From assembly GCA_035221665.1 (NCBI GenBank), contig CM069148.1:49786001-49850000 (forward strand): 64,000 nt of DNA. Reading direction: 5' to 3'. The stretch is from Okamejei kenojei. Taxonomy: Eukaryota. The notes under the pieces were generated by a model that saw only the letters and a program-made list of their open reading frames with translations, made no database searches and was not told where the DNA came from. Every line of letters begins with the position of its first letter. Positions within the stretch are counted from its first letter, which is position 1. Below, piece after piece: positions 15,465 through 48,200 of the stretch. The position numbers and the translations under genes are program-made.

Positions 15465-15766
15465 TCAAAATGGTAAGCGGCACTTTTGCTCAATCCTTTT
15501 CTTTGTCTCCAGATGAAATATTTCACATCTGATTTCCAGGTCATGATCAGATGGTTCTGGAATAAATTCTATTTCTGTTGTTGAAGAGAAGAGGCCAGTG
15601 GTGGCAATCTGAGGTAGACTATTATGGACAGATCCTGTATAGGGTTGTTCTCCTTTGAACCACTTCACCTCAATTTCCTGAGGTACATAATCAGTCAACA
15701 AAACCTTGAAATATGCCACTGAGCTTCTCTCTTTGCAGTAGATTTCAGACACGGTGGGGAAATTAC
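15465..15766 (-). CDS. Exon 10: last Ig C1-like domain (post-TM #6) with stop codon
   Basis: FPTVSEI...[14 protein letters not shown]...[10 protein letters not shown]...[10 protein letters not shown]...LPF*. Acceptor ttttaag|. TGA is followed by G|gtaaat. Confidence 0.87.
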
Positions 15767-18700
15767 CTTAAAATAGAGTAGAAAATGCACATATTGAGAT
15801 GGTCTCACTTTCAACAGTGGATAGTTTAGTTCAGAGATACAGCAAGGAAACACGCTCTTAGGCCCAGCGAATCCACGCTGACCATCGCTAACATGTTCAC
15901 ACTAGTTCTATGTTATCCCATTTTCTCATCCACTCCCTATACACTAGGGGACAATTTACAGAGGTTAATTAACTTTTACTTTAGACTTTGGAGATGCATA
16001 GTGGAAACAGGGCCTTCGGCCCACTGAGTGCGCCGACTAGCGATCAGCCCATTCACTAGCACTAACCGACACACAAGGGACAATTTACAATTTTACCAAA
16101 GCCAATTAACCTACAAACCTGCAGGTCTTTGGGATGTGGGAGGAAACCCACATGGTCAAGGGGAGAACGTGCAAACTCTGCATAGATAGCACCCGAGGTC
16201 AGGATCAAATCCGAGTCTCTGGTGCTGCAAGTCCACAACTCCACCTCTGTGCCACCCAAAATGTTCTTCCTAAACCTTAGTACCCGACTGATCAATTCCA
16301 TCCTTGTTAACAATTATTAAGGCTTTCTACCAGTTTCACTTACCTGGAAGTGGTAAATATAAGTGTTTGGTAATAGCCTCAGGTGTAATTTGATTTTTCA
16401 CCTCAAAGACAAGTTTCTTGTTGTAATGTAACGCTGTGGGTATCAGCTCCAGACAGGAGCACAACTGATAAAATCCATCTTGTTCCTCCTTGGGGTCTGT
16501 ATTCCTGACTCCTTTCAAAATAGGTTTATTGTCCATTAGCCAATTGGTGGAGATTCCATTCTGAGCAAAATTGGTCACGTTGCATTTAAGAACTAGAGGC
16601 TGGCCATAGAATGGAGTTTCTGGCTCAAGAATGATATCAGAAAGCTTTGGAATTCCTACTTGGAAAAATAAAACAGACAACAGTTTAGATATTGCTCAAT
16701 TTTATTATAGTGGAGTTGCTGTAAACAAATCTGTCTTTTCCCAGAACAATTGCACGCAAACTGGCGTTTATTTTAGTTTATTGTCACGTGTACCGAGGTC
16801 TGCGTGCTCTCCAGTCAGTGGACAGGCTATACTTAATTACATTCGAACCATCCTCAGGATAAAGGGAGTAACTTGAATATAGTTTAGTGCAAGATAAATT
16901 ACAGTAAAGTCTGTTCAATTATAGTCTGAAGGTAGAGAGTAGGTCAGGACTGCTCACTAATTGTTGGTAGGATGGTTCAGTTGCCTGATAATAGCACCTT
17001 ACAATCCAATGGTATGAAAATTCACGTCATAAAGGTCATAAATGATAGTAGAATTAGGCCATTCGGCCCATCAAGTCTACTCCGCCATTCAATCATGGCT
17101 GGGGAACAATAATCCTAGTTCTCCACCCACAACAATTTCGTGGCCCGCAATGCGTCACTGTGAAGTCCAGCTGTGTGCACTCAGCTTTAGTGCGTGATTA
17201 GATTTCTTTACTCGATTGCATTTCCAGACACAAGAGTATGGTGCACTGGCATCCTGCCAGATTGTTCCATTTTATCAGTCTGTTGGCAGTCCCAGGTCAA
17301 ACAAAATGAAAATGGTCCCATTTTTGGCTAGAAACACCCTGGTTTACCAAAGATAGACACAGAGTCCAGCGGGTCAGGCGCATCTGTGGAGAACATGGAT
17401 AGGTGACTCAGGCAGCATCAGTGGAGAACATGGATAGAGTTTCACAGAGTGCTGGAGTAACTCAGCGGGTCAGGCAGCATCTGTGCATGGATAGGTGATG
17501 TTTCAGGTCGGGATCCCAAACAAATTCGACAGCTGGAATTTTTGTTGCATTCACTTGATTGCACTTTCCATGTCTTCAGCATGAACCATTAGCAGGCAGT
17601 TAACGTGACCACTGATAGATGCACGCAACAAAGTTCCTAACGCCAATCAAAAATATAGTGGTGAGCATTGGTAAGCAGCTGCTCAAAACAGACAGGTCCC
17701 AACATATTATTGGACAGCAAAACTCTTAGTCAGTTGCCACAGTCAGACACTAACAGACAAGCACCGGGCTTAGTTTAGTTTAGAGATACAGCATGGAAAC
17801 AGGCCCTTCGGCCCACCGAGCCCACGCTGACCAGCGATCCCCGCACACTTACACTATCCTACACACACTAGGGACAATCTGGGTCTCCAATGCTGGGTAA
17901 TAATCCCCCCACAAGTTGTCCCCTTCGCCTCACTGTGCCCCACACTGGTGCACACCCATTTCTCCTATTATCTCCCCTTCCACCTGTATCCCTCCCTTTG
18001 GCTTCACATTGCAATGGGATCAAAGGTACAGGTGCACCATTGATTTTGAGCAACTGGTGGTACAACACCTTTAATCCAGACAAAATTAGGAGAGTGCACT
18101 TGTTATCCTCCCCTCCAACCCACCCCTGGGAAGTCCCCCCAAAAATGTGAAGCCAAGGCTTGGTGAAATGGCTGACCTCTACCTCATCAGGACTTCCGGC
18201 AGCTGACCGGCGAGTCGTATTTGCCCCCTGTGGCCGGCAGATCTGTTCCCAAAGCCAACTTCCGAGGCCGGTGTCTCGGCCACTCAGCGGCCTAGGTGGA
18301 CCGTTCCGGTACTGTTAGACTCCTCTTAGAGGCTGTGACCTCTGTTGGTCCAGCAAACAGATAATCCAGCAAGGCTCTGGAACCAAGGGTGCCAGATAAA
18401 TCAATGGTGGACCTGTAATTTATTGTTACAAGTACATAGAAACATAGAACATAGGCGCAGGAGGCCTTTCGGCCCTTTGAGCCAGCACCGCCATTCATTG
18501 TGATCATGGTTGATCGTCCGCTATCAATAACCCGTGCCTGCCTTCTCCCCATATCCCTTGACTCCACTAGCCCTTAGAGCTCTATCCAACTCTCTCTTAA
18601 ATCCATCCAGTGATTTGGCCTCCACTGCCCTCTGTGGCAGGGAATTTCATAAATTCACAACTCTCTGGGTGAAAAAGTTTTTTCTCACCTCAGTCTTAAA

Positions 18701-21700
18701 TGACCTCCCCTTTATTCTAAGACTATGGCCCCTGGTTCTGGACTCGCTCAACATTGGGAACATTTTTCCTGCATCTAGCTTGTCCAGTCCTTTTATAAAT
18801 TTATATGTTTCCATAAGATCCCCCCTCATTCTTCTAAACTCCAGTGAATACAAGCCTAGTCTTTTCAATCTTTCCTCATATGATAGTCCCGCCATCCCAG
18901 GGATCAATCTCGTAAACCTACGCTGCACTGCCTCAATCACAAGGATGTCCTTCCTCAAATTAGGAGACCAAAACTGTACACAATACTCCAGATGTGGTCT
19001 CACCAGAGCCCTATACAACTGCAGAAAAACCTCTTTACTCCTATACTGAAATCCTCTTGTTATGAATCCCATGCTCTCCAGTACATAGCTAGGTACACTG
19101 AAATTCTTCTTTTGCATACAATCTAATAGAATCTTACTATATATAAACACTAACAAACCTAACTACAAGAGTGTAAGAATAGTAGATTACACTTGATTAG
19201 TTATTGATTAATACAGTTGCCTGGGGTTATGGGGAGAAGGCAGGAGAATGGGATTAAGACGGACAGAGAGATCAGCCATGATTAGACTTGATGAGCTGAA
19301 TGGCCTACACAAGAGTCGCCACATTTCCTAACTAAATTTCCCTTCAAATACCAAAGTTCTTTGAAAAAAAACATTCACTCCTCATCTCTCTTTTTTTGCC
19401 ACCCTTTTGTCACCTTTTCATCCCTAGCCTTTGTCCACCGCATCTGATAATCAAACCCCTCCCCTCACGTGTATCCACCTAACACTCGCCAGGCTTTGTC
19501 ACCTCCCCACCCTTTTTCCTGGCTTTCTCCCCCCATCGATCAGTCTGAACGTGGTCTCCTACCCATGATAATCAAACCCCTCCCCTGACATGTATCCACC
19601 TAACACTCGCAGGCTTTGTCACCTCCCCACCCTTTTTCCTGGCTTTCTCCCCCCCAACAATCAGTCTGAACACGGTCTCCTACCCGTGCTCTCCAGAGAT
19701 GCTGCCTGAAATGAGGGTTACTTCAGCACTTTGTGTCTTTTTTTGTAAACCTGCATCTGCAGTCCGTTGTGTGTTCAAGAACTTCTATAATCTGATTAAA
19801 TTTTATTACAGTACAATGCTTAGAAGTCAGTCCAGGATAACTCAGCAGATAAAATTATTGCGGTAAAAGCACAAAGGAGTAACTCAGTGGGTCAGGCAGC
19901 ACCTCTGGACAACATGGGCAGAAGATTTTTCAGGTTACATAGAACAGTACACCACGGAAAAGGGAGCTTCGGCTCACGACTTCCCTGCATATCCATGTGC
20001 CTATTTAAATGCAATGTACACAACGCTATCGTATCTGCCTCCACCACCACCCTTGTGAGGTGAGGTGACGATCAAGGGTAGGCCTCTGGATAGTGTTGCA
20101 GAGCAGAGGGATCTAGCAACTCATTTCAGACACCCACGAAATGTCTAAAAAAACTTGCCCCACACATCTCCGTTAAAGATACCACCTCTCGATTCATAGC
20201 TATGCCTTGCATTCTTTACATTTCCACCCTGGGGAATAAGGTTCTGACTGTCGACCATATATATGTCTCCATAATATTATATACAGTTGGGACCTTTCTT
20301 CAGACAGGAAGAAGAAAAAGGCAGGGAAACCGAACTAGTCCAAGCCACAAAGTAGATGATGTACGCATGACAAAATCATGAGAGGAATAGAGCAGTTAGA
20401 CTCGCAGTCGCTTGCCCAGAGAAAGGGAATCGAGAACCAGAGGACATAGATTCAAGGTAAATGGAGGAAAGGTTTAATAGGACTCCGAGGGGAAACTTTC
20501 TCACACAACGAGTGGTGGGTGTATACAATTAGGTAGGTACTTGGATAGGACAGGTTTAGAGAGACATGAGCCAAAGGTAAGCAGGTGGTACTAGTGTAGA
20601 TGGGACATGTTGGTCGGTGTGGGCAAGTTGAGCAACTGGGCCTGTTTCCAGGCTGTATGACTTTATATCTCATACCTCCAAGGAGTAAGCTGTGAAAGAC
20701 CTTAGCGGGTCGATGAGAAGTTTGAAAATGAAGAGCCTCAACTTTGAAATCGATTTGATGATCATCAGCTAAAATCATATACTTCCACCGACTTTCACAG
20801 CAGAAGAGGCCAGTGTTTTTATCGATCTCCGGGTCAGTAGAAGTGATCTCTTTATCATCAATCCTCTTCTCATTTTTGAACCACATAAACATAACATCCT
20901 TTGGATAGAAGCCACGTGCATGGCACGAGAATGTTGTCAAATCTCCTGGTTTGGGATATTGTGGTTGAATTTTCATGTCGTCCATTAACGGAGGAGAGAC
21001 TGCAAAAAAACATTAAATCTTGGATAGAATGTAATACAAAAGCAAATGCAGATGCTGGTTTATAGCAAAGAGCCATAAAATAGACATGGATTGAATGTAG
21101 AGAGGATGTTTCTACTAGTGGGAGAGTCTCAGACTCAGAATAAAATGATGTTGTGGCGGCTCCCAAGGTTCGGGCCATTTCCACTATTGAACCCCTCGGC
21201 ACGGGCATGGATGAGTCCAGGGGCGGCCTTTAGCTACAGGGATAAAGGGCTGGGGTTTAGGTGTAATCTCTCTTTTGCAGACTCGTCTGGTCAGGAGAAG
21301 GACAGCGAATAAAATACCTCCCGAAACACCTGGCTCCTCGCCTTCATTTCGGGATTATCATCACGCTACAATGTATCTTTTCAAAGGAGGCGAGGAAGAA
21401 TTTATTTAGTGTGTGTGGAATCTGTGGAATTCATTGCCACAAAAGGCTGTGGATGCCAAGTCAATGGATATTTTTAAGGTGGAGATTGACGGGGGTAATT
21501 AGTACGGGTGTCAGGGGTTATGTGGAGAAGGCAGGAGAATGGGATTGAGGGGGAAAGATAGGTCAACTATGAATCGACGATAAAGTAGACGTGATAGGCT
21601 GAATGGCCAAATGAAATGGCTCCAGTAACTCAGTGGGTCAGGCAGCATCTCTGGAAAACATGGATAGATGACGTTTCGGATTGGGACTGAAGAACGGTCT

Positions 21701-24700
21701 GAAGAGGGGTCCTGACCCAAAACATCACCTATCAATTTTCTTCAGAGGTGTTGCCCACCCAACTGAGTTCCTCCAGCACTTTGTGTCTGTCACTAATTCT
21801 TGCAATTTAAGATTGGAACTCAGACAATAGCCTATAGGTGCAGGAGTAGGCCATTCGGCCCTTCAAGCCAGCACCACCATTCAATGTGATCATGGCTGAT
21901 CATCCCCAATCAGTACCCCGTTCCTGCCTTCTCCCCATATCCCCTGACTCTGCTATCTATGAGCCCTATCTAGCTCTCTCTTGAAAGTATCCAGGGAACC
22001 TATCCACCGTATCCAGAGAACTTATCTAAAGTATCCACCGCCCTCTGAGGCAGAGAATTCCACAAACTCACAACTCTCTGTGAGAAAAAGTGTTTAATCG
22101 TCACTGTGGCCCCTGGTTCTGGACTCCCCCAACATCGGGAACATGTTTCCTGCCTCTAGCGTGTCCAAACTCTTAATAATCTTATATGTTTCAATCAGAT
22201 TCCCTCTCATCCTTCTAAACTCCAGAGTGTACAAGCCCAGCCGCTCCATTCTCTCAGCATATGACAGTCCAGCCCTCCCGGGAATTAACCTTATAAACCT
22301 ATGCTACACTCCCTCAACAGCAAGAATGTCCTTCCTCAAATTAGGGGACCAAAACTGCACACAATACTCCAGGTGTGGTCGCACTGGGGACCTATACAAC
22401 TGCAGAAGGACCTCTTTGCTCCTATATTCAACTCTTTAATGTTATAAAGGCCAACATGCCAATCGCTTTCTTCACTGCCTGCTGTACCTGCATGCTTATT
22501 TTCATAGACTGATGAACAAGGACCCCAGATCCCGTTGTACTTCCCCTTCCACCATTTAGATAATAACCGGCCTTCCTGTTTTTGCTATAAAAGTGGATAA
22601 CCTCACATTTATCCACATTAAACTGCATCTGCTATGCATCTGCCCTCTCACCCAACCTGTCCAAGTCGCCCTGCATTCTCATAGCACCCTACTCATAGTT
22701 CACACTGCCACCCAGCTTTGTGTCATCTACTCATTGCTAATGTTACTTTGAATCCCTTCATCTAAATCATTGATGTATATTGTAAATAGCTGCGGTCCCA
22801 GCACTGAATGTTGCGGCACCCCACTAGTCACTGCTTGTCATTCTGAAAGGGACCCGTTAATCCCTACTCTTTGTTTCCTCTCTGCCAAGCAATTTTCTAT
22901 CCATGTCAGCACTCTACCCCCAATACCATGTGCCCTAATTTTACCCACTAATCTCCCATGTGGGACCTTATCAAATGCTTTCTGAAAGTCCAGGTACACT
23001 ACATCTACTGGCTCTCCCGTGTCCATTTTCCGAGTTACATCCTCAAAAAATCCTCAGAACATTAGTCAAGCATGATTTCTCCTTCGTAAATCCATGCTGA
23101 CTCGAACCGATCCTGTTACTGCTATCCAAATGTGCGGCTATCTCATCTTTTATAATTGACTCCAGCATCTTCCCCGCCATCAATGTCAGGCTAACTGGTC
23201 TATAATTCTGTTTTCTCTCTCCCTCCTTTCTTAAAAAGTGGAATAACATTAGCTACCCTCCAATCCACAGGAACTGATCCTGAGTCTATAGAACATTGGA
23301 AAATTATCATCAATGCATCCACGATTTCTAGAGCCACTTCCTGCAGTACCCTGGGATGCAGACCATCAGGCCCTGGGGATTTATCAGCCTTCAGTCCCAT
23401 CAGTCTATCCAATACCATTTTCTGCCTAATGTGGATTTCCTTCAGTTCCTCCGTCACCCCAGATCTTCTGGCCACTAGTATATCAGGAAGATTGTTTGTG
23501 TCCTCCTTAGTGAAGACGGATCCAAAGTACCTGTTCAACACATCTGCAATTTCCTTGTTCCCCATTATAAATTCATCCTTTTCAGTCTTCAAGGGTCCAA
23601 CTTTGGTCTTAACTAATTTTTTCCTCTCACATACCTAAAGAAGCTTTTACTATCCTCCTTTATATTCATATTTTACTATCCTCCTTTATATAACTTGGAC
23701 CTTGAAGTGCAGGGGCAGTGAAGTGTAATCTTATTGAGGTGTATAAAATCATGAGAGGAATAGATCAGGTAGATGCACAGATTAAGTGAATCGAGGACCA
23801 GAATACATAGGTTTAAGGTGAAGGGGAAAAGATTTAAAAGGAATCTGAGGGATTACTTTTTCCACAAAGGGTGGTGGGTGTATGGAACAAGCTGCCAGAG
23901 GAGGTAGTTGAGGCTGGGACTATCCCAATGTTTAAGTAACAGTTAAACAGGTACATGGTTAGGGCAGGTTTGGAGGGATATGGACCAAACGCAAGCAGGG
24001 GGGACTAGTGTAGTTGGGATATGTTGGCTGGTGTGGGCAAGTTGAGCCAAAGGGCCCGTTTCCATGCTCTATCACTCTAGATAAATGAACAAAAATGGAC
24101 AACAATGTTCAACAATTAAATCTTTCAAAATAAAAAAGAAATAAAACACTTCCTTACTCAGTTTATCCAATTTACAGTCAGTTTTTTTTGTGCCTATGAT
24201 ACTTTCATGCTTGAATTTGCAGGTTAATATCTTTCCACGGTCTTCTCTCGCAGGGATGAACTTCAGATGATCTGTGAAGCTATAACGACCATCGGTTCCT
24301 AAGGTGGGTTCAGTTTCAGCTTTAGTTTCCTGCAATTGTTTGTTATCCATTTTCCAAATAACTTCAATGTTCTTTGGGAAGAAGGAATGTATCCTGCAGG
24401 TTGATTCAGCAAATTCTTCTGCAATTGGGATTTCCGGTGCCAACTTAATGTCTTCACATTCTGGGATTGCTGAAGAGAAAGGAATGAAAAAGCTGTGAAA
24501 GGTTCAGATATCCTGCAGGGATTGTTGTTCCGAGTCGTATAACACGGAAATAGGCCCTTCAGTCAAGCTTGTCCCCAACCAAGATGCCCCATCTCAGCTC
24601 ATCCCATTTATACACGTTTGGCTTGTATCCCTTTAAACCTTTCCTATCCATGTTCAAGTCTTTGAAATGTTGTTATAGTACCTGTCTCAACTACCTCCTC

Positions 24701-27700
24701 TGGCACTCTTTCCATACACCCAACACCTTCTGATCGAAAACGTTTCCTCTCAGATTTCTACTAAATCTTGCCCCTCTCACTTTAAACCTATGCCCTCCGG
24801 TTTGTTGATTCCCCTCTCCTGTGTAAAAGACGCCTCTATAAGATCAGCCTTCAGCCTCCTGCGCTCCAAAAAGGTGTTCTAACCTCCTCAAACTCTCCCT
24901 ATAGCTCAGGCCCTCAAGTCCCAGCAACATCCACATAAATCTTCTCTTCACTCTTAGCAGCTTAATGACATCGTTCCGATAGCAGGGTGAGCAAAACTGA
25001 ACACGGTACACTATATGTTGCCTCACCAACATCTTGTACAACTGTAACATAACATCTTAACTTCTATCCTCAATACCGTGACAAATGAAGGCCAATGTAC
25101 CAAAATCCTTCTTTACCACCCTATCTACCTTTGACACCACTTTCAGGGAACAACCCACCTGCACTCCTAGATCCCTCTGTTCTGCAACATTCCCCAGGGT
25201 CCTACCATTCATTGTGAAGGTTCTGCCTTGGTTTGATTTCCCAAATATGCAGCACCTTGCACCTTATACTTTGGAGATACAGAGTGGAAACAGGCCCTTC
25301 AGCCAACCGAGTCCATGCCGACCATCGATCTCCCCATACTCTACCACAATCCTACACACGGGGCAATTTACAATTTACAAAAGCCAACTAACCTGTACAT
25401 CTGTAGGTCTTTGAAGCGTGGGAGACCGGAGCACCCAGAGAAAACCCACAGTCATAAGGAGAACATACAAACTGTATTTATCTGCATTAAACTCAATTAG
25501 CTATGGCACAGCCCACTTGCACAGATGATCAAAAGCCTAATGTGATTTTTGATAATCATCTTCACTGTTCACCTACTTTGAAAGGGTAATTAAAAAGTGT
25601 TGATATTAAGCCAGATTGGACATTGGTAGCACATTCACCTGAATTATTATCCTGATGCCTGGTCTAATCTGCATATAGATTTGGTAAAATACATTCTTTG
25701 GTCTGCCTGAAGCTTGTTGGTCCCCCAGCAAATGGCCATCAGGGTATGTTGGCAACTGGCACATTCCAGACTGCAGGAGTATGTGCTGAGGGGAAGAGCC
25801 TGCTTCCATTGTATCTTACAATCCATAATAGGAATAGAGAAATTCTGACTGTACCTTTTACGTCAAGTTTGACCTGATGTAGTGTTTTTGAAGCTGTAGC
25901 TGGATGTTCAACTTCACAAACATACACTGTTCCATGGTCTTCGAGAATCGTTGGTGTAAATATTAGAAAACTGGTGACACTATAAGTATTGTCTTCATTG
26001 GTCAACTCATTTAGAGAGTGGGAATATTTAGGCAGATCCTTTTCCCCACCAACAATAACATCTTCGCTTCCATACACAGTTCTCACAATTTCTTTCAATC
26101 CCATGTTTTCTTTTGCTTTGTAGGGTTTTTGGTACCAAGTGATGGCCAGTGGTCTTGGCGTAAATCCGTCAATAGGACAAGACAAAGCAATCACCTCTTC
26201 GTGAATAATGTGAGGCGGCGCGAGAATATTAATCATCTTTGGTGCAACTGTTTTTATTTAAGGAAAAAGGAGAGAAGATTTCATGGTTTTAGAATTTACA
26301 GTGTATTGTATAAAACTTGCTGAATTTATTTTGTCTAGTGCAGTTGAGATATAACTGCAATCCAGCGATTTTAACAGACCCCACACACACTAGTAACATT
26401 TACTGCATAGTAGAGATAATATATATAAGCATCTGGATAAACAGGGTCTGATCAGGAACAGTCAACATGGATTTGTGCCTGGAAGGTCATGTTTGACAAA
26501 CCTTCTTGAATTTTTTTAAGCGATAACTAGGGAAATTGATGAGGGTAAAGCAGTGGATGTTGTCTATATGGATTTCAGTAAGGCCTTTGACAAGGTTCCC
26601 CATGGAAGGTTGGTTAAGAAGGTTCAATCTTTGGGAGTTAATGGCGGAGTAGCAAGATGGATTCAACAGTGGCTGAATGGGAGATGTCAGAGAGTAATGG
26701 TGAGTGGCTGTTTGTCAGGTTGGAAGCCGGTGACCAGTGGGGTGCCTCAGGGATCTGTGTTGGGTCCACTGTTGTTTGTCATGTACATCAATGATCTGGA
26801 TGATGGGGTGGAAAATTGGATAAGTAAGTATGCAGATGATACTAAGATAGGTGGTGTTGTGGATAATGAAGCAGATTAATGTGAAGGGGAACTTCTTTAC
26901 TCAGAGGGTGGTGGCTATGTGGAATGAGCTTCCAGCAGAAGTGGTGGAGGCAGGATCGATTTTAACATTTAATAGTAAAGTGGATAGGTATATGGACGTG
27001 AAGGGAATGAAGGGGTATGGTCTGAGTGCAGGTAGATGGGACTAGGGGAAAACAAATGGTCGGCACGGACTGGAAGGGCCGAGAGGGCCTGTTTCCGTGC
27101 TGTAATTGTTATATGGTTATATCGGATTATTCGTGAGATATAATTACAGAAAGGACTATATACGGCTAATTTAAGAGTATATAGTTAAAACAGAGTCATT
27201 TTGGGCAGCACAGTGGCGTAGCTGGTAGAGCTGCTGTCTCATAGAGCCGGACCAGGTTCGATCCTGACCTCCAGTGCTGTCTGTGTGGAGTTTGCACATT
27301 CTCCCTATGACCGCGTGGGTTTCCCCCTTACATCCTAAAGGCATGTGGGTTTGTAGGTTAATGCCCTCAGAATGCAGGGAATAGGTGAGGAAGTGGAAAA
27401 ACCTAGAACAGGTGATCGATGGTTGCTGCGGACTTGGTGGGTGGAAGAGCCTGTTTCCATGTTGTATCTCTAAGCTAAACTACATTTTACCTGAGGTATT
27501 GATTTAGTAAGACGCTTTTATAAACAAATAAAAATTGTTTTCTTGACATCATTTAATCTACTTTAGAAATACAGCATGCAAACAGGCCCTTCAACCAAAC
27601 AAATCCGCACCAACCATCAATCACCCGTTCACACTAGTTCTACATTACCCCACTTTTTCTACCACTCCCTACACACTGGGGGCAATTTACGGTGGCCAAT

Positions 27701-30700
27701 TAACCTACAAACCCGCATATCTTTGGAATATGGGATGAAACCGGAGCATCCGGAGAAAACCCAGCAGTCACAAGGAGAACGTGCAAACTCCACACAGACA
27801 GCACCCCAGGTCAAACTCCGAGCCTCTGCCACTGTGAGGCAGCAGCTCTACATGCTGCACCGTGTGCCACACTGTATACTTACTTCCTTCAACTTTCAAT
27901 TGGATGGATTTAGTAATAGGCTTTCCAAGAGTGCTATGTGAAACTTGAAGAGAGAGGACAGTTCCGTCATCTTTATCAATTTCAGGGATGAATATAATTT
28001 TGCATTTCGCACTGGAGTGGCCATCGTGTGTAACAGCTGTCATCTCAATGTGGATAGACTCATTCGCAGAGTCGCCATTGCAAATAAGTCTTTGCTGGTC
28101 TATAGCTTCAGGTGCTTGCGAGTGGCCAGGTGCAGAGCTCCATTGGAAAATCTTACTTTGATTTCCCCCCTCTCTTTGTAGAAAACAACAAAGCGAAATG
28201 TTTGCAGGCTTATATCCTGATATATGACAAGTCAGAACAGTTTCTTCCAAATGTATAATGTGTGGTGGTTTGGCGATTTCAGACACTTTAGGAGGTACTA
28301 GGAAAAAAAAATGTTGATGTTATTCTTCTTTTGGAAGAGGTTTATGTCACTTTAAAAGTATCAGAACAAATTCATCATCCATCTACATAAAACATCCACT
28401 GTAATAAATATGGATGTAAGAACACCTGGCTCAATATCTCATTACATTTTAAGTATCCCCATGGAAGGTTGGTTAAGAAGGTTCAATCTTTGGGTGTTAA
28501 TGGCGGAGTAGCAAGATGGATTCAACAGTGGCTGAATGGGAGATGTCAGAGAGTAATGGTGATTGGCTGTTTGTCAGGTTGGAAGCCGGTGACCAGTGGG
28601 GTGCCTCAGGGATCTGTGTTGGGTCCACTGTTGTTTGTCATGTACATCAATGATCTGGATGATGGGGTGGAAAATTGGATAAGTAAGTATGCAGATGATA
28701 CTAAGATAGGTGGTATTGTGGATAATGAAGTAGATTCTCAAAGTCTACAGAGAGATTTGGGCCATTTGGAAAAGTGGGCTGAAAGATGGCAGATGGAGTT
28801 TAATGCTGATAAGTGTGAAGTGCTACATCTTGGCAGGACAAATCAAAATAGGACGTACATGGTAAATGGTAGGGAATTGAGGAATGTTGTGGAACAGAGA
28901 GATCTAGGAATAACTGCATAGTTCCCTGAAGGTGGAATCACATGTAGATGGGGTGGTAAAGAAAGCCTTTGGTGTGCTGGCCTTTATAAATCAGAGCATT
29001 GAATATAGGAGTAGGGAAGTAATGTTAAAATTGTACAAGGCATTGGTAAGACCAATTCTGGAGTATGGTGTACAATTTTGGTCGCCTAGTTATAGGAAGG
29101 ATGTCAACAAAATAGAGAGAGTACAGAGGAGATTTACTAGAATGTTGCCAGGGTTCCAGCAACTATGTTACAGAGAAAGGTTGAACAAGTTAGGTCTTTA
29201 TTCTTTGGAGCGCAGAAGGTTAAGGGGGGGACTTGATTGAGGTCTTTAAAATGATGAAAGGGATAGACAGAGTTGACGTGGATAAGCTTTTCCCATTGAG
29301 GGTAGGGAAGATTCAAACAAGAGGGCATGACATGAGAATTAAGGGACAGAAGTTTAGGGGTAACGTGAGGGGGAACTTCTTTACTCAGAGGGTGGTGGCT
29401 GTGTGGAATGAGCTTCCAGCAGAGGTGGTGGAGGCAGGATCGATTTTAACATTTAAAAGTAAAGTGGATAGGTATATGGACGTGAAGGGAATGGAGGGGT
29501 ATGGTCTGAGTGCAGGTAGATGGGACTAGGGGAAAACAAATGGTCGGCACGGACTGGAAGGGCCGAGAGGGCCTGTCTCCGTGCTGTAATTGTTATATGG
29601 TTATATGGTTATCTCCACATTTAGAAATAACATGAGAATCAGACATCAAAAATAAAGCAAAAGATATGAATAAATAAATCGAAATCACAATGCAAGAAAA
29701 AAGAACTGGAAATGCAGAGGTGAAAAATACTGGTGTACCTCAAGAATAAAGAAAGATCATCCTATGAAGGTTAGACATAAATAGAAATCAATGGATGTGG
29801 AGAGGATGCTTCCACAAGTGGGAGAGTCTAGGACCAAAGGAACAGCCTCAGAATAAAAGGAAGTACCTACCTTTAGAAAGGAATCACAAACCTATCAATT
29901 ATTTAAAACATAGAAACATAGAAAATAGGTGCAGGAGGAGGACATTCGGCCCTTCGAGCCATTCATTGTGATCATGGCTGATCGTCCCCTATCAATAACC
30001 CGTGCCTGCCTTCTCCCCATATCCCTTGACTCCACTAGCCCCTATCTAACTCTCTCTTAAATCCATCCAGTGATATGGCCTCCACTGCCCTCTGCGGCAG
30101 GGAATTCCATAAATTCACAACTCAGGTGAGAAAAAACTTTTTCACACATAGTCTTAAATGATCTCCCCTTTATTCTAAGATTGTGGCCCCTGATACTGGA
30201 CTCTCCCAACATTGGGAACATTTTTCCTGCATCTAGCTTGTCCAGTCCTTTTATAATTTTATATGTTTCTATAAGATTGGCCCTCAGCCTTCTAGAGTCA
30301 AGTGAATACAAGCCTAGTCATTTCAATCTTTCATATGACAGTCCCGCCATCCCAGGGATCAATCTCGTGAACCTATGCTGCACTGCCTCAATCACAAGGA
30401 TGTCCCTCCTCAAATTAGGAGACCAAAACTGTACACAATACTCCAGATGTGGTCTCACCAAAGTCCTATACAACTGCAGAAGAACCTCTTTAATCCTCTA
30501 CTGAAATCCTCTTGAAGGCCAACATTTCATTAGCTTTCTTCACTGCCTGCTGTACCTGCACGGCAACTTTCAGTGACCGGTGTACAAGGACACCCAGGTC
30601 TCGTTGTACCTCCCCCTTACCTAACCTATCCCCATTGAGATAATAATCTGCCCCCTTGTTCTTGCCACCAAAGTGGATAACCTCACATTTATCTCTATTA

Positions 30701-33700
30701 TACTGCATCTGCCCACTCACTCAACCTGTCCAGGTCCCCCTGCAATCTCCTAAAATCCCCTTCACAGTTCACACTGCCACCCAGCTTTGTGTCATCTGCA
30801 AACTTGCTAGTGTTCCTTCTAATTCCCTCTTTCAAATCATTTATATATGGTAAACAGTTGCGGCCCCAACACCGAGCCTTGCGGCACTCCACTCGCCACT
30901 GCCCGCCATTCTGAAAAGGACCTGTTCACTCCTACTCTTTGCTTCCGGTCTGCCAACCAATTTTCTATCCATGTCAACACCCTACCCCCAATACCATGTG
31001 CTCTAATTGTAGTCACCAGTCTCCCATGCAGGACCTTATCAAAGGCTTTCTGAAAGTCTAGATACACTACATCCACTGGCACCCCTTCATCCATTTTACT
31101 CGTCACATCCTTAAAAAATTCCATAAGATTAGTCAAGCATGATTTCCCTTTCATAAATCCATGTTGACTTGGACTAATCCTTTTACTGGTATCCAAATGC
31201 CCCATTTTTACCTCTTTAATAATTGACTACAGCATCTTTCCCACCACCGAAATCAGGCTAACTGGTCTGTAATTCCCCGTTTTCTCTCTCGCTCCTTTCT
31301 TGAAAAGTGGGATAATATTAGCTATCCTCCAATCCACAGGAACTGATCCTGAATCTATTGAACATTGGAAAATGATCACCAATGCGTCCACTATTTCTAG
31401 AACCACCTTCCTGAGGACCCTGGGACGCAGACCATCAGGCCCAGGGGATTTATCATCCTTCAGTCCCATTAGCCTACCCAATACTATTTCTCACCTAATG
31501 AAAATTTCTTTCAGTTCCTCTACCTCCTTAGATCCTCTGTCCTCCAGTACATCTGGGAGATTGTTTGTGTCTTCCTTAGTGAAGACAGATCCGAAGTACC
31601 TATTCAACTCTTCTGCCATTTCCTTGTTGCCCATAATAATTTCATCCCTGTCTGCCTTCAAGGGACCCACTTTTGACTTTGCTACTCTTTTTCCCTTAAC
31701 ATATGTAAAGAAGCTTTTACTGTCCTTCTTTATATTCCTGGCCAGTTTACCCTCGTAGTTCATCTTTTCAGCCCGTATTGCCCGTTTTGTTTCCTTCTGT
31801 TGTCTTATGAAAGTTTCCCAATCCTCTGGCTTCCGGCTACTCTTTGCTGTAATATCTTTTCTCTTAGTTTTATTCTATCCCTAATTTCTCGTCAGCCATG
31901 GTTGCCTCCTACTCCCCTTAAAATCTGTTTTCATTTTTGGAATGAAATGATCCTGCGTCTTCCGGATTATGCTCAGATATTCGTGCCATTGCGGTTCCAC
32001 CGTCATTCCTGCTAGGATCCCTTTGCAGTCTACTTTGGCCAGCTCCCCTCTCATGCCTTCATAGTCCCCTTTGTTCAACTGCATCACTGACACTTCCGAT
32101 TTAACGTTCTTCTTCTCAAATTGCAGTTGAAACCTATCAATTTCTTTGGCTTTAAAAATACCCAATGATATGGCCTCCTCAACTGCCCGTGGCAATTAAT
32201 TCCACAGATTCACCCCCCTCTGGTTAAATAAATTCTTCCTCATCTCCATTCTAAAGGAACGTCCTTTTACTCCGAGGCTGTGGCCTCTGGTCCTGGACTC
32301 TCCCACTGCTGGAAACATCCTCTCCATGTCCACTCTATCTATCTATCTATCTATCTATCTAACTATCTGACAGTTCATATTCAGTCGAGGTAATGTAGTG
32401 AATAAATGCATGAAATATAGAACATTGAACAGAGTACAGCACAGGAACAGGCCCTTCGGCCCACAATGCTCATGCCCAACATGATGCCAAGATAAACTAA
32501 TTTGCTCTGCCTCCACCACCACCCCTGGCAGCATGTTCAAGGCAACCCCCAACACACCTCTGTGTAAAAAAAATTGTTGTCCATATCTCCATAAAACTTT
32601 GCCCCTCTCATCTTAAAGTTATGCCCTCTGGTCTTTGACATTTCCACCCTGGGGATAACGTTCTGATTACCTATGCTTCGCATAATTTTACAATTTCTAT
32701 CAGATCTTTCCTCAGCCTTTTCCTCACTCTAGAGAAAATAATCAAACTTTTTCCAATCTTTCCTGTATTCAATATCCTCTAACCCAGGCAGCATTGTGGT
32801 AAACCTCTCCCCATGCCTCCACATCCTTCCTGTAAAGTAGCGAGCATAACTGCATGCAATACTCCAAATATGGCCTAACTAAAGTCCTATAAAGCTGCAA
32901 CATGACTTCCTGCCTCTTATACTCAATGTCGTGTCTGATGTAGGCAAGCATTCTATACCATACTATATCAAACACAGAAAATTATCTTAGGCAAAACTGT
33001 TTTGAATGTTCAGGGATGGATACTTTACTTTTTCTAAAAATCTTTAGATACATTAAAAATCCAACGATCATGATCAAGGAACACAGCAGTATACTGCCAA
33101 TAACACAGCATGTAATTATTCCCCCTGGTACAACGATTTCTGGTTCTGTAAGAAAAAAGGTTTTAATAACAATTAGCAAAAATCTTATATTCATTACACA
33201 AGACTATTTCCAAAACAACTACATAGGCAGCATAGTAGCACAGCGGTAAGTTGTTGCTTCACAGTGCCAGAGACAAAGAAAAGCTTTTCAATGTACCTCA
33301 GTACAAATGACAATCAAGTAAACTAAACCTGGGTTCGATCCCGACTCCGGGTGCTAACTGTGCAGTGTATGTACATTGTCCCTGTGACCGCGTGAGTTTC
33401 CTCCGGGTGCTTCGGTTTCCTCCCACACGTCAAAGTTGTGCAGGTTTGTGAGTTAATTGGATTCTGTCAATTCTCCCTTGTGTGTAGGATGCAAAACTGG
33501 GATAACAGAGAACGGCCTCCTTCATGGCCAGAGTGAGGACCACCATAAGTTGGAGGAGCAGCACCTCATATTTCATATGGGAAGTTTGCACCCCAGCGGA
33601 ATGAACATTGACTTCTCTAATTTTAGGTAGTCCTCACTTTCTCCTGCCCTTCTCAGCTCTCCCTCAGCCCACTGGCTCCACCTCTTCCCGCCTGCCCACA

Positions 33701-36700: not shown

Positions 36701-39184
36701 CATTCTTTATACTCCTCTAGAACCTCATTTACTCCATACCTCCTATAATTATTGTAGATATCTCTCTTTTTTCGAAACAAGTGTCCAATTTCCCTTGAAA
36801 ACCATGGCTCTTTCTAATTTTTAATATTTCCTTTCACCCTAACAGGAACATAAAGATTCTGTACTCTTACAATTTCCCCTTTAAATGTCCTCCATTTCTC
36901 TTCTACATCCTTCCCATAAAATAGTGTCCAAACTCCTAAAATAGTGTCCAACTCCTTTTAAATCCTTACGCATTCCCTCAAAGTTAGCCTTTCTCCAATC
37001 AAAAATCTCCACCCTAGGTCCAGTTCTGACTCTCTCCATAATTATATTGAAACTAATGGTATTGTGATCACTGGTCCCGAAGTGCTCACCAACGCATACC
37101 TCCGTCACCTGACCTGCCTCATTTCCTAACAGGAGGTCCAGCACTGCCCCTTCTCTGGTCGGTACCTCTATGTACTGCTGTAAAAAACTATCCTGCACAG
37201 ATTTTACAAACTCCAAACCATCCAGCCCATTTACAGAATGTGTTTCCCAGTCTATTTTTGGAAAATTGAAATCTCCCACAATCACTACCTTGTGCTTACT
37301 ACTAATATCTGCTATCTCCTTACATATTTGCTCTTCCAATTCTCGTTCCCCATTTGGCGGTCTATAATACACCCCTGTAAGTGTTGTTACACCGTTCCCA
37401 CTTCTTAGTTGCACCCAAATAGCCTCCCTAGACGAGCCCTCTAATCTATCCTGCCAGAGCATTGCTATAATATCCTCTCTGACAAGCAATGCAACACCTC
37501 CACCTCTGGTCCCTCCAATTCTATCACACCTGAAGCAACGAAATCCTGGAATATTTAGTTTCCAATCACAGCCATCCTGCAACCATGTTTCACTGATTGC
37601 CACAACATCATATTTCCAGGTGTCAATCCAGGCTCTAAGTTCATCCACCTTTCTTACAATTCTCCTAGCATTAAAATATACACATTTTAGAAACCCACCA
37701 TCCCTTATTCTCTATTATCTTTTTCCTCTTTCTCGTCTACATTTTGGGTCCATGTGCTTCCCTTCTCTGCCTCTTGACCCACACCCTGTCCCCTAGCCCC
37801 CTCTACCCGAGTCCCTCTTTGGGGAATTGGAGAAGTTAATGTTCATACTGCTGGGGTGTAACTGCCCAAGCGAAACACGAGGCTCCTCCAATTTGCAGTG
37901 GGACTCATTCTAGCCATGGAGGAGGCTCAGGACAGAAAGATCGGATTCGGAATGGGAGGGGAAGATGAAGTGCTGGGCCACCGGGAGATCAGGTTGGTTA
38001 ATACGAACTGAGCGGAGGTGTTGGGCAAAGTGATCACCAAACCTGCGCTTGGTCTCACAGATGTAGAGCAGCTGACACTAGAGCAGCGGATGCAATAGAT
38101 GAGGTTGGAGGAGGTGCAGGTGAACCTCTGCCGCACCTGGAAAGACTGCTTAGGTCCTTGGGTGGAGTCGCAGGGGGAGGTAAAGTGACAAGTGTGGCAT
38201 TTCCTGCGGTTGCAAGGGAAAGGACCTGGGGAGTGGGTGGTTTGGGTGGGAAGGTAGCATTTCCTTAGAATCAGTAGGAGACAAATGCCCTTCAACCCAA
38301 CTTATCCATACTGTCCAAGATACACCATCTACGCCAGACTAACCTGCCCATATTTGGCCCATCGATGGTCAGTGTGGATTCGTTGGGCTGAAGGGTCTGT
38401 TTCCACATTACTTCTATAACTAAAATTAAACTTACCTTTGACAGTCAGATGGGTGGTCAACTCTGTGCCCTTATCAAGTGATCTATGTCTCACTAAGCAG
38501 ATGTAAGTGTTACCATCGTCCTGGAGTGTTGGACGTAGCCTCATATGGCTTGACACATTGTAGGTTCCATCCGCATTTCTAACAGGAGATCCTGTGCAAA
38601 TGTGGTCCAGGATCTTCTGTTCTCCACTCTTTGATTTCTTGAGCCAGCTTATCTGAATCGCCAAGGGGTAAAACGCAGTACTGTCACATTTCACCGATTT
38701 CTCCGTCCCATTCTCAATTGTGATAGCAGTTGCGGATAAACTAATTTGCGGTTCAGCTGTAAAGATAATAATTAATGTTAGTCATACAGTGTGGAAACGG
38801 GCCCTGCGGCCCAATCTGCCCACACGAGCCAGCATGTCTCATAGTCATTTGATATTAGTGGCCGTTTAAAAATATATTTTTCAATCCGAATCAAGTAATG
38901 AATGCACAAATTGAAATGTTGAGTTTAGGTTCGAGATACAGCGTGGAAATAGGCCTTCGGCTCATCGAGTCCGCGCTGACCATCAATCACCCCGTACATT
39001 AATTCTAACTGAACAATATAATAAGAAGAATCCAATTATTCACAGTATAACACAGCTGATTGGGTGCAACCCGGGGTTTACATTTTTACATTTCATTAAT
39101 TCATTAACTGGGAGTTAAGGATTCTGGGAGTTAAGGGTTCAGTATTTATTAGTAAAGTTTAAAGGATAACGTTTTGTGTTTATA

Positions 39185-45200: not shown

Positions 45201-48200
45201 TACAATTCTAAATGTAGAAACACCAATAACAGAGGCAATTAGAAGGGACTGCTAACAAGAGTTATTGATAAAAATTCCGAACGATAGATGGGAAAAAAAA
45301 TTATATGGAAATAAATGTTCAATTAATGTAAGACATAATCTAATTCAATTTAAAATTTTACATAGACTATATTATTCGAAAACTAGACTGAATAAAATAT
45401 TTTCAAATGTTTCACCCATCTGTGATAAATGTCTAACTCAAAATGCCACTATAGCACATTCCTTTGTCTCTTGTACAAAACTGTATAAATTTTGGAATGA
45501 AATGTTTGGAATTTTTACAAAACTATTTAACACAAAATTGAACCCCAATACAGAACTGATTATCTTTGGATCAATGGAAGAGGGAAGTAAACTAACTATA
45601 TTCCAAGAAGCTTTTCTTAATTACGGTCTAATAACAGCAAAAAAGCTTATACTCAAATTTTGGAAAAACACAACCACGCCAACATTCAAAATGTGGATTT
45701 GAAACATGTCTGAAATGCTACATCTTGAAGAAATGAGATTCCTCCTAATAGGCAAAGTTGATCTATTCTTAAAGACTTGATTGTGGATCTTTTATCAACT
45801 TTTTACAAGCATATGGTGCAACATAACATAACCGTAGAAATTAAATGGTTTAGGACCGGGTGACGGATGGGCAAAAATACGAAATAGGTAGATCTCCTAT
45901 TTCTTTACTTTCTCCTTTTCTTTCAATCTGTTTAGCTTCTCATCTCTGTCCTTTATTTCTTAGGCTATCCGTTTCTACTCGCTTGTCTATCTATTCCGAC
46001 ACACTTTATTTATTTTTTCTCTCACTATTCTTTTATTATTAAATCATAAATACGAAGTTGTACAAGAATGGAAATTTGTATGTATGTATTAGGTACTCAA
46101 GTACCACACTATTGTACTCACTTCTAACAAAAATAAACAACAACAAAAAAACAAAAAAAAAAAACAAACAAAAAAAACAAAAAAAAACATACACACTAGG
46201 GGCAATTTATAGAAGTCCACACCGTCACAGGGAAAATGTACAAACTCCATACAGATAGCACCCGTAGTAGGATGGAACTTGAGTCACTGGCACTGGAAGG
46301 CAGCAAATCTATCACTGTGCCACCCACAGCCTTTCCCCACAATCAACTAGAATGCCGATGTAATGAACTGTAAGTGGACTGTTTTACAAAAAAAGACACA
46401 AATAGTTGGAGTAACTTAGTGGGTCAGGCAGCATTTCTGGCGAAACATGGACAAGTGATGTTTTCAGTCAGAACACTTGTGGTACTCCAGCATTTTATGT
46501 CCTTTTCAGGGTAGAAAGTTGATGTTGGTGGTATTAGCTACAAGGAGAAGATGGACAGACTTGCATTGTTTTCTCTGGAACGTCAGAGGTTGCGTAGACA
46601 CATGGTGGAGATGTGTAGGGTATTTTTAGTTTGCAGGTGTATCGCTACACAGCTTGTAACTACATATATAACGATTGAGTGAGTAATTTTTTGTGATCTG
46701 TTTCAAAGAGTAGATTGTCAGAACGTTTTATCCCTGGGTGAAAATGTCAAAGACATATACACAGAGGTCAAATTCATTAGAATTCAGGCTTGAGAGATAC
46801 GGCGTGGAAACAGGCCCTTTAGACCACCGAGTCCATGCCGACCAGCGATCACCACGTACACTAGCACTATCCCACACCGTAGGGAAAATTTAACAATTTT
46901 ACCAAAGCCAAATTAACTACAAACCTGCAGATGTTTAGAGGGTGGGAGGAAACCGGAGCACCCGGAGAAAACCCATCACAGGGAGAACGTACAAACTCCA
47001 CACTGACGAGGTCAGGATTGAACCGGTTTCGCTGGAATGTGAGATAGCAGCTCTACCCACTGCGCCACTGTGCACGCCTGAAATATTTGTTAGTTGTTTT
47101 TACCTGAAACAATCATTGAAGATTCGCCGCTTCCCTGGTCTGGGCTGATAAAGACTACGCAGGTATAATCTCCTTCTTCATTAAATTGAACACGTGGGAG
47201 GAAGAGAGAAGCAATTCCCTTCTTTAACTCATCATCATAAATCGCAGCATCTTTTCTGTAAGATGTATGCCTTCCTCCGCTGAATTTATACACTTCATCC
47301 TTGGTGGAAGCCCCGAACTTTTTATGGTACCAGATGACACCCACATTTTGAAGGTTGATCTCACTGGTCTTGTAACCAGACACTCGGCATTCAAGAAGGG
47401 CATCTTTATTCACAGGGACTTCCACCATTCTTGAATTCATTGACACAACCAGATCTCCTCCTTCTGGAATCATAGAGAAACAAGTTGCCAGTCTACAAAC
47501 AAATCGCCAAATAAAAAGTAGGAAACAAATTTTTAGAGAATTTTGCCAGCACGGTGATGCAGTGTGAAAATGTAGTTTAGAGATAAAGTGGAAACAGCCC
47601 CTTTGGCACATCGAATCCGTGCCGACGAGCAATACACTAGTGTTATCCTGGCGAATCTGTGGGATTCTTTGCCACGGAAGGCTGTGGAGGCAGTCAATGG
47701 ATATAATTAAGGCAGAGGTAGATAGATTTTTGATTAGGACGGGTGTCAGGGGTTATGGAAGGTAGGAGAATCAGGTTAGGAGGGAGAGACAGATCAGTCA
47801 TGACTGATTGGTGGAGTAGACTTGATGGGCCAAATAGACTAATTCTACTCCTTTCACTTATGTTCTTATGATCCTACACACTAGGGACAATTTATAAGTT
47901 TACAGAAACCAATTAACCTATGAAACTGCACGCAGTCACAGGGTGAACGTACAAACTCCGTTCACACAGCACTTGAAAATATATCAATTATTCGTATTGA
48001 CTTTAGCAAAATAATCCCAATAATCTGAAGAAGGGTCTCGACCCAAAATGTCACCTATTTCTTCGCTCCATAGATGCTGCCTCACCCGCTGAGTTTCTCC
48101 AGCATTCTTATCTAATTTTAAATTCATTTGTTGATAAACATTGCCCTTAAGGTTCCTATTAAATCTTTCTCCTCTCACCTTAAACCTATGTGGTTCTTGA

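What the first reader, a model, noticed from the sequence alone, without database searches (positions are those of the whole stretch)
15465..28297. Canonical Ig disulfide lost in 4 of 6 post-TM domains but kept in both pre-TM domains
Seen: the F-strand Cys is replaced in exon 5 (LSLQVSH; the C-strand Trp is also replaced by Cys), exon 8 (FKVEALH) and exon 9 (LVFEVKN). The B-strand Cys is replaced in exon 10 (YFKVLL). Exons 6 and 7 keep both, as do the V and first C1. Frames and splice sites are intact, which argues against pseudogene decay. Inference: relaxed selection on disulfides is expected in the reducing cytosol, giving independent support for cytoplasmic topology.
Basis: partly seen in the sequence, partly recalled or inferred. 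Interest (0 to 1): 0.72.

Follow-up and report, generated by a model that had tools for sequence, protein, structure and literature searches.

The report
B7-H6 with cytosolic antibody-like domains
This skate immune gene, a relative of the NK-cell ligand B7-H6, has six antibody-like domains behind its membrane anchor; four lack the usual disulfide pair, an old loss shared from sharks to frogs that, with other clues, likely places these domains inside the cell, where such domains are not normally found.

Summary
Observation confirmed. The gene is a B7-H6 (NCR3LG1)-like protein: leader, V, C1, one TM helix, six C1-set domains. Exons 5, 8 and 9 lack the F-strand Cys and exon 10 the B-strand Cys. 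In the window alone, 4/6 versus 0/2 is not significant (p=0.43). Across 150 family representatives, both Cys are kept in 133/140 pre-TM and 219/446 post-TM C domains. Cytosolic topology is supported by TM-containing spliced transcripts, positive-inside charge, sequons enriched only pre-TM, and a conserved acidic dileucine-type sorting motif in the first post-TM domain (33/86; shuffles 6.8). The 'relaxed selection' reading needs correcting. The losses are ancient, domain-specific, hydrophobic swaps, fixed from chimaera to frogs. Post-TM domains are about as conserved as pre-TM ones, exons 6 and 7 keep both Cys in 93/97, and partnerless Cys are also conserved, which points to a packing role. The scan noted this architecture before in another skate genome (e1-8584256). 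I found no paper describing it, but the key 2012 B7H6 evolution paper could not be read. Verdict: new variant of a known kind.

The parts
57273..57348 (-). exon 1, leader (predicted signal peptide), phase-1 donor
   Evidence: matches the N-terminus of the annotated skate orthologues P0002 and P0009; hydrophobic stretch judged by eye, no signal-peptide predictor run
47104..47463 (-). exon 2, V-set domain, both canonical Cys
   Evidence: both Cys in 110 of 112 family V domains
38436..38756 (-). exon 3, pre-TM C1-set domain; both canonical Cys, a third Cys, two sequons (one aligned with the human B7-H6 NVT site)
   Evidence: best PDB match is human B7-H6 (E 3e-15)
33029..33145 (-). exon 4, the only transmembrane helix after the leader, followed by basic residues
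   Evidence: single hydropathy peak, 2.8; a 117-nt gap between exons 3 and 5 in spliced contigs of 4 runs
27884..28297 (-). exon 5, first post-TM C-type domain; F Cys lost, Trp replaced by Cys, E-strand Cys, long C-D insertion
   Evidence: only weak Pfam hits
28083..28100 (-). acidic dileucine-type motif DQQRLI in the unstructured C-D loop of exon 5
   Evidence: 33 of 86 family loops, shuffle mean 6.8; low-confidence loop in both models; motif class recalled
25855..26247 (-). exon 6, C1-set domain, both Cys kept
   Evidence: 52 of 55 in the family class
24158..24469 (-). exon 7, C1-set domain, both Cys kept
   Evidence: 41 of 42
20676..20999 (-). exon 8, C1-set domain, F Cys lost, B Cys kept
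   Evidence: F Cys in 0 of 32, B Cys in 30 of 32
16344..16655 (-). exon 9, C1-set domain, F Cys lost
   Evidence: F Cys in 7 of 25
15465..15766 (-). exon 10, C1-set domain, B Cys lost, F Cys kept; stop codon
   Evidence: B Cys in 2 of 18, F Cys in 18 of 18

Best explanation
The gene encodes an intact B7-H6-family membrane protein with a V and a C1 domain before its one transmembrane helix and six C1-set domains after it, which likely lie in the cytosol and so likely need no disulfide. Shown: gene model, splicing through the TM exon, Cys pattern and its conservation from cartilaginous fish to amphibians. Inferred: in the cytosol the B-F bond gives no benefit, so early in jawed-vertebrate history four domain types replaced one Cys with a core-filling hydrophobic residue, and those states were then fixed. 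The Cys that remain, paired or not, are likely kept as buried packing residues rather than as disulfides. Inferred function: the ectodomain acts as a B7-H6-like ligand, the dileucine-type motif in the first cytosolic domain would recruit clathrin adaptors and set surface lifetime, and the Ig chain would be a rod-like cytosolic scaffold with unknown partners.
For: Human B7-H6 is the best PDB match for the C1 exon and for a full-length orthologue (E 7.5e-31). A paralogue with the same layout lies about 15 kb from a KCNJ11-like gene (the human neighbourhood is recalled). Spliced contigs in 4 runs of 2 studies join V, C1 and exon 5 with a 117-nt gap, the TM exon's length. Net charge is more positive after the TM in 86 of 101 proteins. 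Sequons: 1.96-fold over shuffles pre-TM, 1.16-fold post-TM (reversed-motif control 1.33 and 1.22); density is higher pre-TM in 90 of 101. The sequon at the human N208-like position is in 54 of 140 pre-TM and 24 of 446 post-TM domains. Both Cys: 133 of 140 versus 219 of 446. Partnerless Cys are conserved: 30 of 32 in exon-8 type, 18 of 18 in exon-10 type. Dileucine-type motif in 33 of 86 first-domain loops, 2 of 54 other post-TM loops, 1 of 140 pre-TM loops. One homologue carries NACHT-LRR behind the same first post-TM domain.
Against: No experimental topology. Exon-6 and exon-7 types keep both Cys in 93 of 97, as often as extracellular domains. In the 10 close orthologues post-TM sequons are not depleted: exon 5 has 17 observed versus 8.2 expected, and NVT in exon 9 is in 9 of 9. 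Seven of 140 pre-TM domains also lack the pair. Five of the 40 database models examined clearly join C1 to the post-TM domains with no TM or show no TM peak at full length. One homologue has a tachylectin domain, usually extracellular, behind the post-TM domain. Control spacings of the dileucine motif also exceed shuffles (16-18 of 86), and the KCNJ11-side paralogue lacks the motif. V, first of 10 PDB hits, scores B7-H3 slightly above B7-H6.
Confidence: 0.82

Rival explanations
1. Dual topology. A splice form that skips the symmetric phase-1 TM exon is secreted, so exons 6 and 7 keep real disulfides and some post-TM sequons are used in that form.
For: All exons are phase 1. Annotated isoforms without a TM peak exist beside TM-bearing ones in a stingray and a caecilian (P0197, P0203), and three other models join C1 straight to the first post-TM domain. 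Exon 6 and 7 pairs are near-invariant.
Against: Contigs of 4 runs run through a TM-sized gap unbroken, though contigs drop rare forms. Family-wide, post-TM sequons are at the level of the reversed control. Partnerless Cys are conserved equally well. Missing a short TM exon is a common gene-model error (one search says so for UrIg2).
Confidence: 0.1
2. The domains are cytosolic, but the Cys pairs of exons 6 and 7 are a conditional redox or mechanical switch, as in titin, forming under oxidative stress.
For: Pairs kept in 93 of 97. Titin's conserved Ig Cys are oxidised in vivo (abstract of PMC8971355). Post-TM regions are richer in Cys, 3.0% versus 2.1%.
Against: Single Cys are conserved as strongly without a partner, so packing suffices. 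No redox data.
Confidence: 0.12
3. All eight Ig domains are extracellular or lumenal (the hydrophobic segment does not stop transfer), and the losses are offset by other disulfides.
For: Many extra Cys occur in post-TM domains. Exon 5 has an invariant E-strand Cys in 10 of 10 orthologues, at a position next to the B Cys by recalled C1 geometry. Extracellular Ig domains lacking the bond are known.
Against: Strong single TM with positive-inside charge; no second TM. The E-strand Cys is present whether the B Cys is there (28 of 37) or not (26 of 33), p=0.78. Exon 8 has only one conserved Cys. Two relatives with tandem C domains before a C-terminal TM keep all pairs, 10 of 10 and 5 of 5.
Confidence: 0.05
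4. Decay: the post-TM exons are drifting or non-functional.
For: Exon 5 is the least conserved domain (63%) and has lost the Trp in skates.
Against: Open frames, splicing, conservation equal to the ectodomain, and the same pattern across jawed vertebrates.
Confidence: 0.01

Closest known systems
Human B7-H6 (NCR3LG1), ligand of NKp30
   Same: V-C1-TM ectodomain; best PDB match; the C1 E-strand sequon aligns with the NVT site, and human N208 in an NVT motif is functional (passages of PMC10684670); a frog family member is annotated NCR3LG1.
   Different: Six C1-set domains follow the TM. The human tail is non-Ig with retroviral Gag homology (recalled). The window's V has no sequon. The copy beside KCNJ11 is a different paralogue, 23.6 Mb away on the same contig.
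Butyrophilins and other B7 relatives with folded cytosolic modules (recalled)
   Same: V-C ectodomain, one TM, then a folded cytosolic domain.
   Different: Their module is B30.2, not a C1-set Ig array; not compared by tree here.
Shark UrIg2 (PMC12227049, passages)
   Same: Elasmobranch IgSF protein with a long tandem C1 array.
   Different: Its C1 domains precede the TM, and the solved ones each have the canonical disulfide and Trp.
Titin I-band Ig domains (PMC8971355, abstract)
   Same: Tandem intracellular Ig domains with conserved Cys.
   Different: I-set, no membrane anchor, mechanical role; no sequence relationship tested.
Sea cucumber AjNLR-new (PMC13133943, passages)
   Same: A membrane immune receptor reported to have an intracellular Ig domain that binds cytoskeletal proteins.
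   Different: Unrelated architecture (NACHT, two TMs); not B7, not a C1 array.

Membership tests
B7-H6 / NCR3LG1 family | V + C1 ectodomain most similar to B7-H6 | tested here: met
   C1 and V-C1 best match human B7-H6; V alone ranks B7-H3 just ahead
B7-H6 / NCR3LG1 family | single TM after V-C1, type I | tested here: met
   hydropathy, charge and spliced contigs; orientation inferred
B7-H6 / NCR3LG1 family | position next to KCNJ11 (human neighbourhood recalled) | tested here: inconclusive
   met by the paralogue at C18:26.16-26.19 Mb, not by the window gene at 49.8 Mb; one-to-one orthology unresolved, human sequence not in the tree
B7-H6 / NCR3LG1 family | binds NKp30 | not testable with these tools
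   no binding data
C1-set Ig domain (exons 6-10) | C1-set profile match and beta-sandwich fold | tested here: met
   Pfam C1-set above cut-off for exons 6-10; predicted strands in an orthologue, pLDDT mostly 60-85
C1-set Ig domain (exon 5) | C1-set profile match | tested here: inconclusive
   no C1-set hit; aligns with the other domains in a family profile; all-beta model at pLDDT 54
C1-set Ig domain | B-F cysteine pair | tested here: not met
   absent in exons 5, 8, 9, 10; present in 6 and 7
Acidic dileucine sorting signal (pattern recalled) | [DE]xxxL[LI] in an unstructured cytosolic stretch, conserved | tested here: met
   cytosolic location inferred
Acidic dileucine sorting signal (pattern recalled) | binds AP complexes and drives sorting | not testable with these tools
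   no experiment

The most novel reading that the evidence does not exclude
The ancestral B7-H6 was a two-sided receptor: an NK-ligand ectodomain joined to a cytosolic array of antibody-type C1 domains that evolved to fold without disulfides, is routed by a dileucine signal, and uses the two retained Cys pairs as a redox switch; mammals later replaced the whole array. It would be a natural, 450-million-year-old set of cytosol-stable C1 domains.
Probability: 0.2. Interest if true: 0.85.

Novelty: new variant of a known kind. Interest (0 to 1): 0.6.

Why it matters
C1-set domains are the building blocks of antibodies, T-cell receptors and MHC, and are taught as extracellular and disulfide-pinned (recalled; canonical pair described). 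An old vertebrate family with C1 arrays in the cytosol would change the picture of what B7-H6 did before mammals, give a natural experiment on Ig folding without the disulfide (useful for intracellular antibody scaffolds), and offer direct tests: topology, the LI mutation, and partner pull-down.

Tried and rejected
Window-only statistic: not significant. Sequon test on 10 close orthologues: uninformative, since V has none and exons 5 and 9 have more than expected. Fold search of the full model gave only generic tandem-Ig hits. Atlas search with an orthologue's post-TM part gave generic C1-set clusters. V-domain tree: deep branches weak, so orthology to human is unresolved. No listed run is on record as RNA; splicing is read from the contigs themselves. 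Rare TM-skipped forms cannot be excluded by contigs. Per-domain dN/dS not run: no orthologous DNA held. Literature: ten searches listed no paper on Ig domains behind the B7-H6 TM; Flajnik et al. 2012 and Ohta and Flajnik 2015 are not held, so I saw nothing of their text and they may already note the architecture. No supplements were read.
Full report
Observation. The four motifs are on the minus strand where stated. The gene has ten exons: leader 57348-57273, V 47463-47104, C1 38756-38436, TM 33145-33029 and six post-TM exons from 28297 to 15465, all joined in phase 1 with AG/GT ends and an open frame. Exons 5, 8 and 9 lack the F-strand Cys, exon 10 lacks the B-strand Cys, and exons 6, 7, V and C1 keep both. 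Exons 6-10 pass the Pfam C1-set cut-off; exon 5 does not. In the window alone, 4 of 6 against 0 of 2 is within chance (p=0.43).

Identity. The C1 exon and a full-length orthologue match human B7-H6 best among solved structures; V alone ranks B7-H3 slightly higher. The closest named relatives are skates (84-85% over exon 6). The own genome holds two more genes with V-C1-TM and post-TM domains, a broken copy and a further V-C1 pair. One of them lies about 15 kb from a KCNJ11-like gene, the neighbour of human NCR3LG1 as I recall it. The window gene is therefore a B7-H6-family paralogue; one-to-one orthology is unresolved.

The TM exon is used. In four runs of two studies, single contigs of 2.2-3.2 kb join V, C1 and exon 5, with a gap of 117 bases between C1 and exon 5, the length of the TM exon. 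The TM piece itself was not among the listed rows, and contigs drop rare forms.

The family. A profile search returned 150 representatives. Of 20 looked up, all carry vertebrate names: chimaera, sawshark, rays, skate, coelacanth, lungfish, bichirs, caecilian, salamanders and frogs; one frog protein is annotated NCR3LG1. In 10 close orthologues, chosen from 24 proteins by dropping near-duplicates, isoforms and fragments, the Cys pattern is identical to the window's in every domain present. Over the 150 representatives a family profile found 777 C-type domains; 52 with gaps at the scored positions and 139 from proteins with no or several TM peaks were set aside. Both Cys are present in 133 of 140 pre-TM and 219 of 446 post-TM domains, and in 110 of 112 V domains. 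Because kin share states, I counted changes on trees: 5 on a pre-TM tree of length 77.3 and 54 on a post-TM tree of length 287.7 (p=0.008), while the Trp changed 3 and 5 times. Trees of 104-column domains are rough, so the 2.9-fold ratio is approximate.

Not simple relaxation. The losses are tied to domain type. Of 446 post-TM domains, 242 could be assigned: both Cys in 2 of 70 (exon-5 type), 52 of 55, 41 of 42, 0 of 32, 6 of 25 and 2 of 18. Replacements are mostly V, I, L, F or W. Orthologue identity is 63-75% post-TM and 72-74% pre-TM. Cys without a partner are among the best conserved columns: B Cys in 30 of 32 exon-8 types and F Cys in 18 of 18 exon-10 types. So a kept Cys need not mean a bond, and the kept pairs in exons 6 and 7 do not argue strongly against the cytosol. 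The evident alternative pair in exon 5 fails: the E-strand Cys is present in 28 of 37 domains with the B Cys and 26 of 33 without.

Other signs of topology. There is one TM peak after the leader, and net charge is more positive behind it in 86 of 101 proteins. Sequons are 1.96-fold over shuffles before the TM and 1.16-fold after it, against 1.33 and 1.22 for the reversed motif. The site aligned with the human NVT sequon is a sequon in 54 of 140 pre-TM and 24 of 446 post-TM domains; human N208 is functional (passages of PMC10684670). Against this, among the 10 close orthologues exon 5 has 17 sequons versus 8.2 expected and exon 9 keeps NVT in 9 of 9.

A new clue. The first post-TM domain has a long variable loop, low-confidence in both models. 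It holds DQQRLI at 28100-28083. The pattern [DE]xxxL[LI], which I recall as the acidic dileucine sorting signal, is in 33 of 86 such loops (86 of 103 first domains have a loop of 35 residues or more); shuffles give 6.8, at most 14 in 300. Reversed and shifted spacings give 16-18, other long post-TM loops 2 of 54, pre-TM loops 1 of 140. Such signals work only in the cytosol. The KCNJ11-side paralogue lacks it. One homologue carries NACHT-LRR behind this domain and another a tachylectin domain; both are single unverified models and point in opposite directions.

Mechanism. Shown: structure, splicing and conservation. Inferred: type I topology with a cytosolic C1 array (about 0.9); early fixation of hydrophobic swaps once the bond was useless, with the remaining Cys serving packing (about 0.8); adaptor-mediated sorting by the dileucine motif (about 0.6); scaffold role (partners unknown). 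Rivals are a secreted TM-skipped form, suggested by some annotated isoforms, a titin-like redox switch (abstract), and an all-extracellular form.

What is known. Ten searches listed no paper on this architecture. The two most relevant papers, Flajnik et al. 2012 and Ohta and Flajnik 2015, are not held and may mention it. I read passages of PMC12227049, PMC6514059, PMC10751288, PMC10684670, PMC13262535, PMC13133943, PMC12051499 and bioRxiv 2022.03.04.482883, and the abstract of PMC8971355; no supplements.

Verdict. New variant of a known kind; interest 0.6.

Noticed in passing
G000:C18:26.163-26.186 Mb (L038, L007, L005, L006) and KCNJ11-like ORF L039:6376-7620: Paralogue with V-C1-TM and post-TM domains next to a KCNJ11-like gene; likely the positional B7-H6 orthologue. 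It keeps both Cys in its first post-TM domain and lacks the dileucine motif.
   Followed up: partly
G000:C18:49.904-49.929 Mb, 50.000-50.010 Mb, 50.273-50.277 Mb: Neighbouring cluster: a gene with four detected post-TM domains, a broken copy (stop in the exon-6 type, frame break in C1) and a further V-C1 pair.
   Followed up: partly
P0166 and P0080: Family members whose first post-TM domain is followed by NACHT-LRR or by tachylectin; real fusions or gene-model errors.
   Followed up: no
window 38436-38756 and 33029-33145: A third Cys in the pre-TM C1 (10 of 10 orthologues, 55 of 140 family domains) and an invariant Cys in the TM (10 of 10); possible dimer or lipid sites.
   Followed up: no
P0061, P0143, P0163, P0164, P0042: Relatives with 7-14 post-TM domains, often alternating between both-Cys and no-Cys repeats.
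   Followed up: no
window 50068-54433, minus strand: Broken ORFs in intron 1 that look by eye like a reverse transcriptase and tyrosine recombinase element (DIRS-like, label recalled); LINE-like fragments fill most introns.
   Followed up: no
window 16655-16658 and 15766-15465: Tandem acceptor three bases apart at exon 9; the A-B loop of exon 10 is four residues shorter than in the Rhinoraja orthologue, in frame.
   Followed up: no
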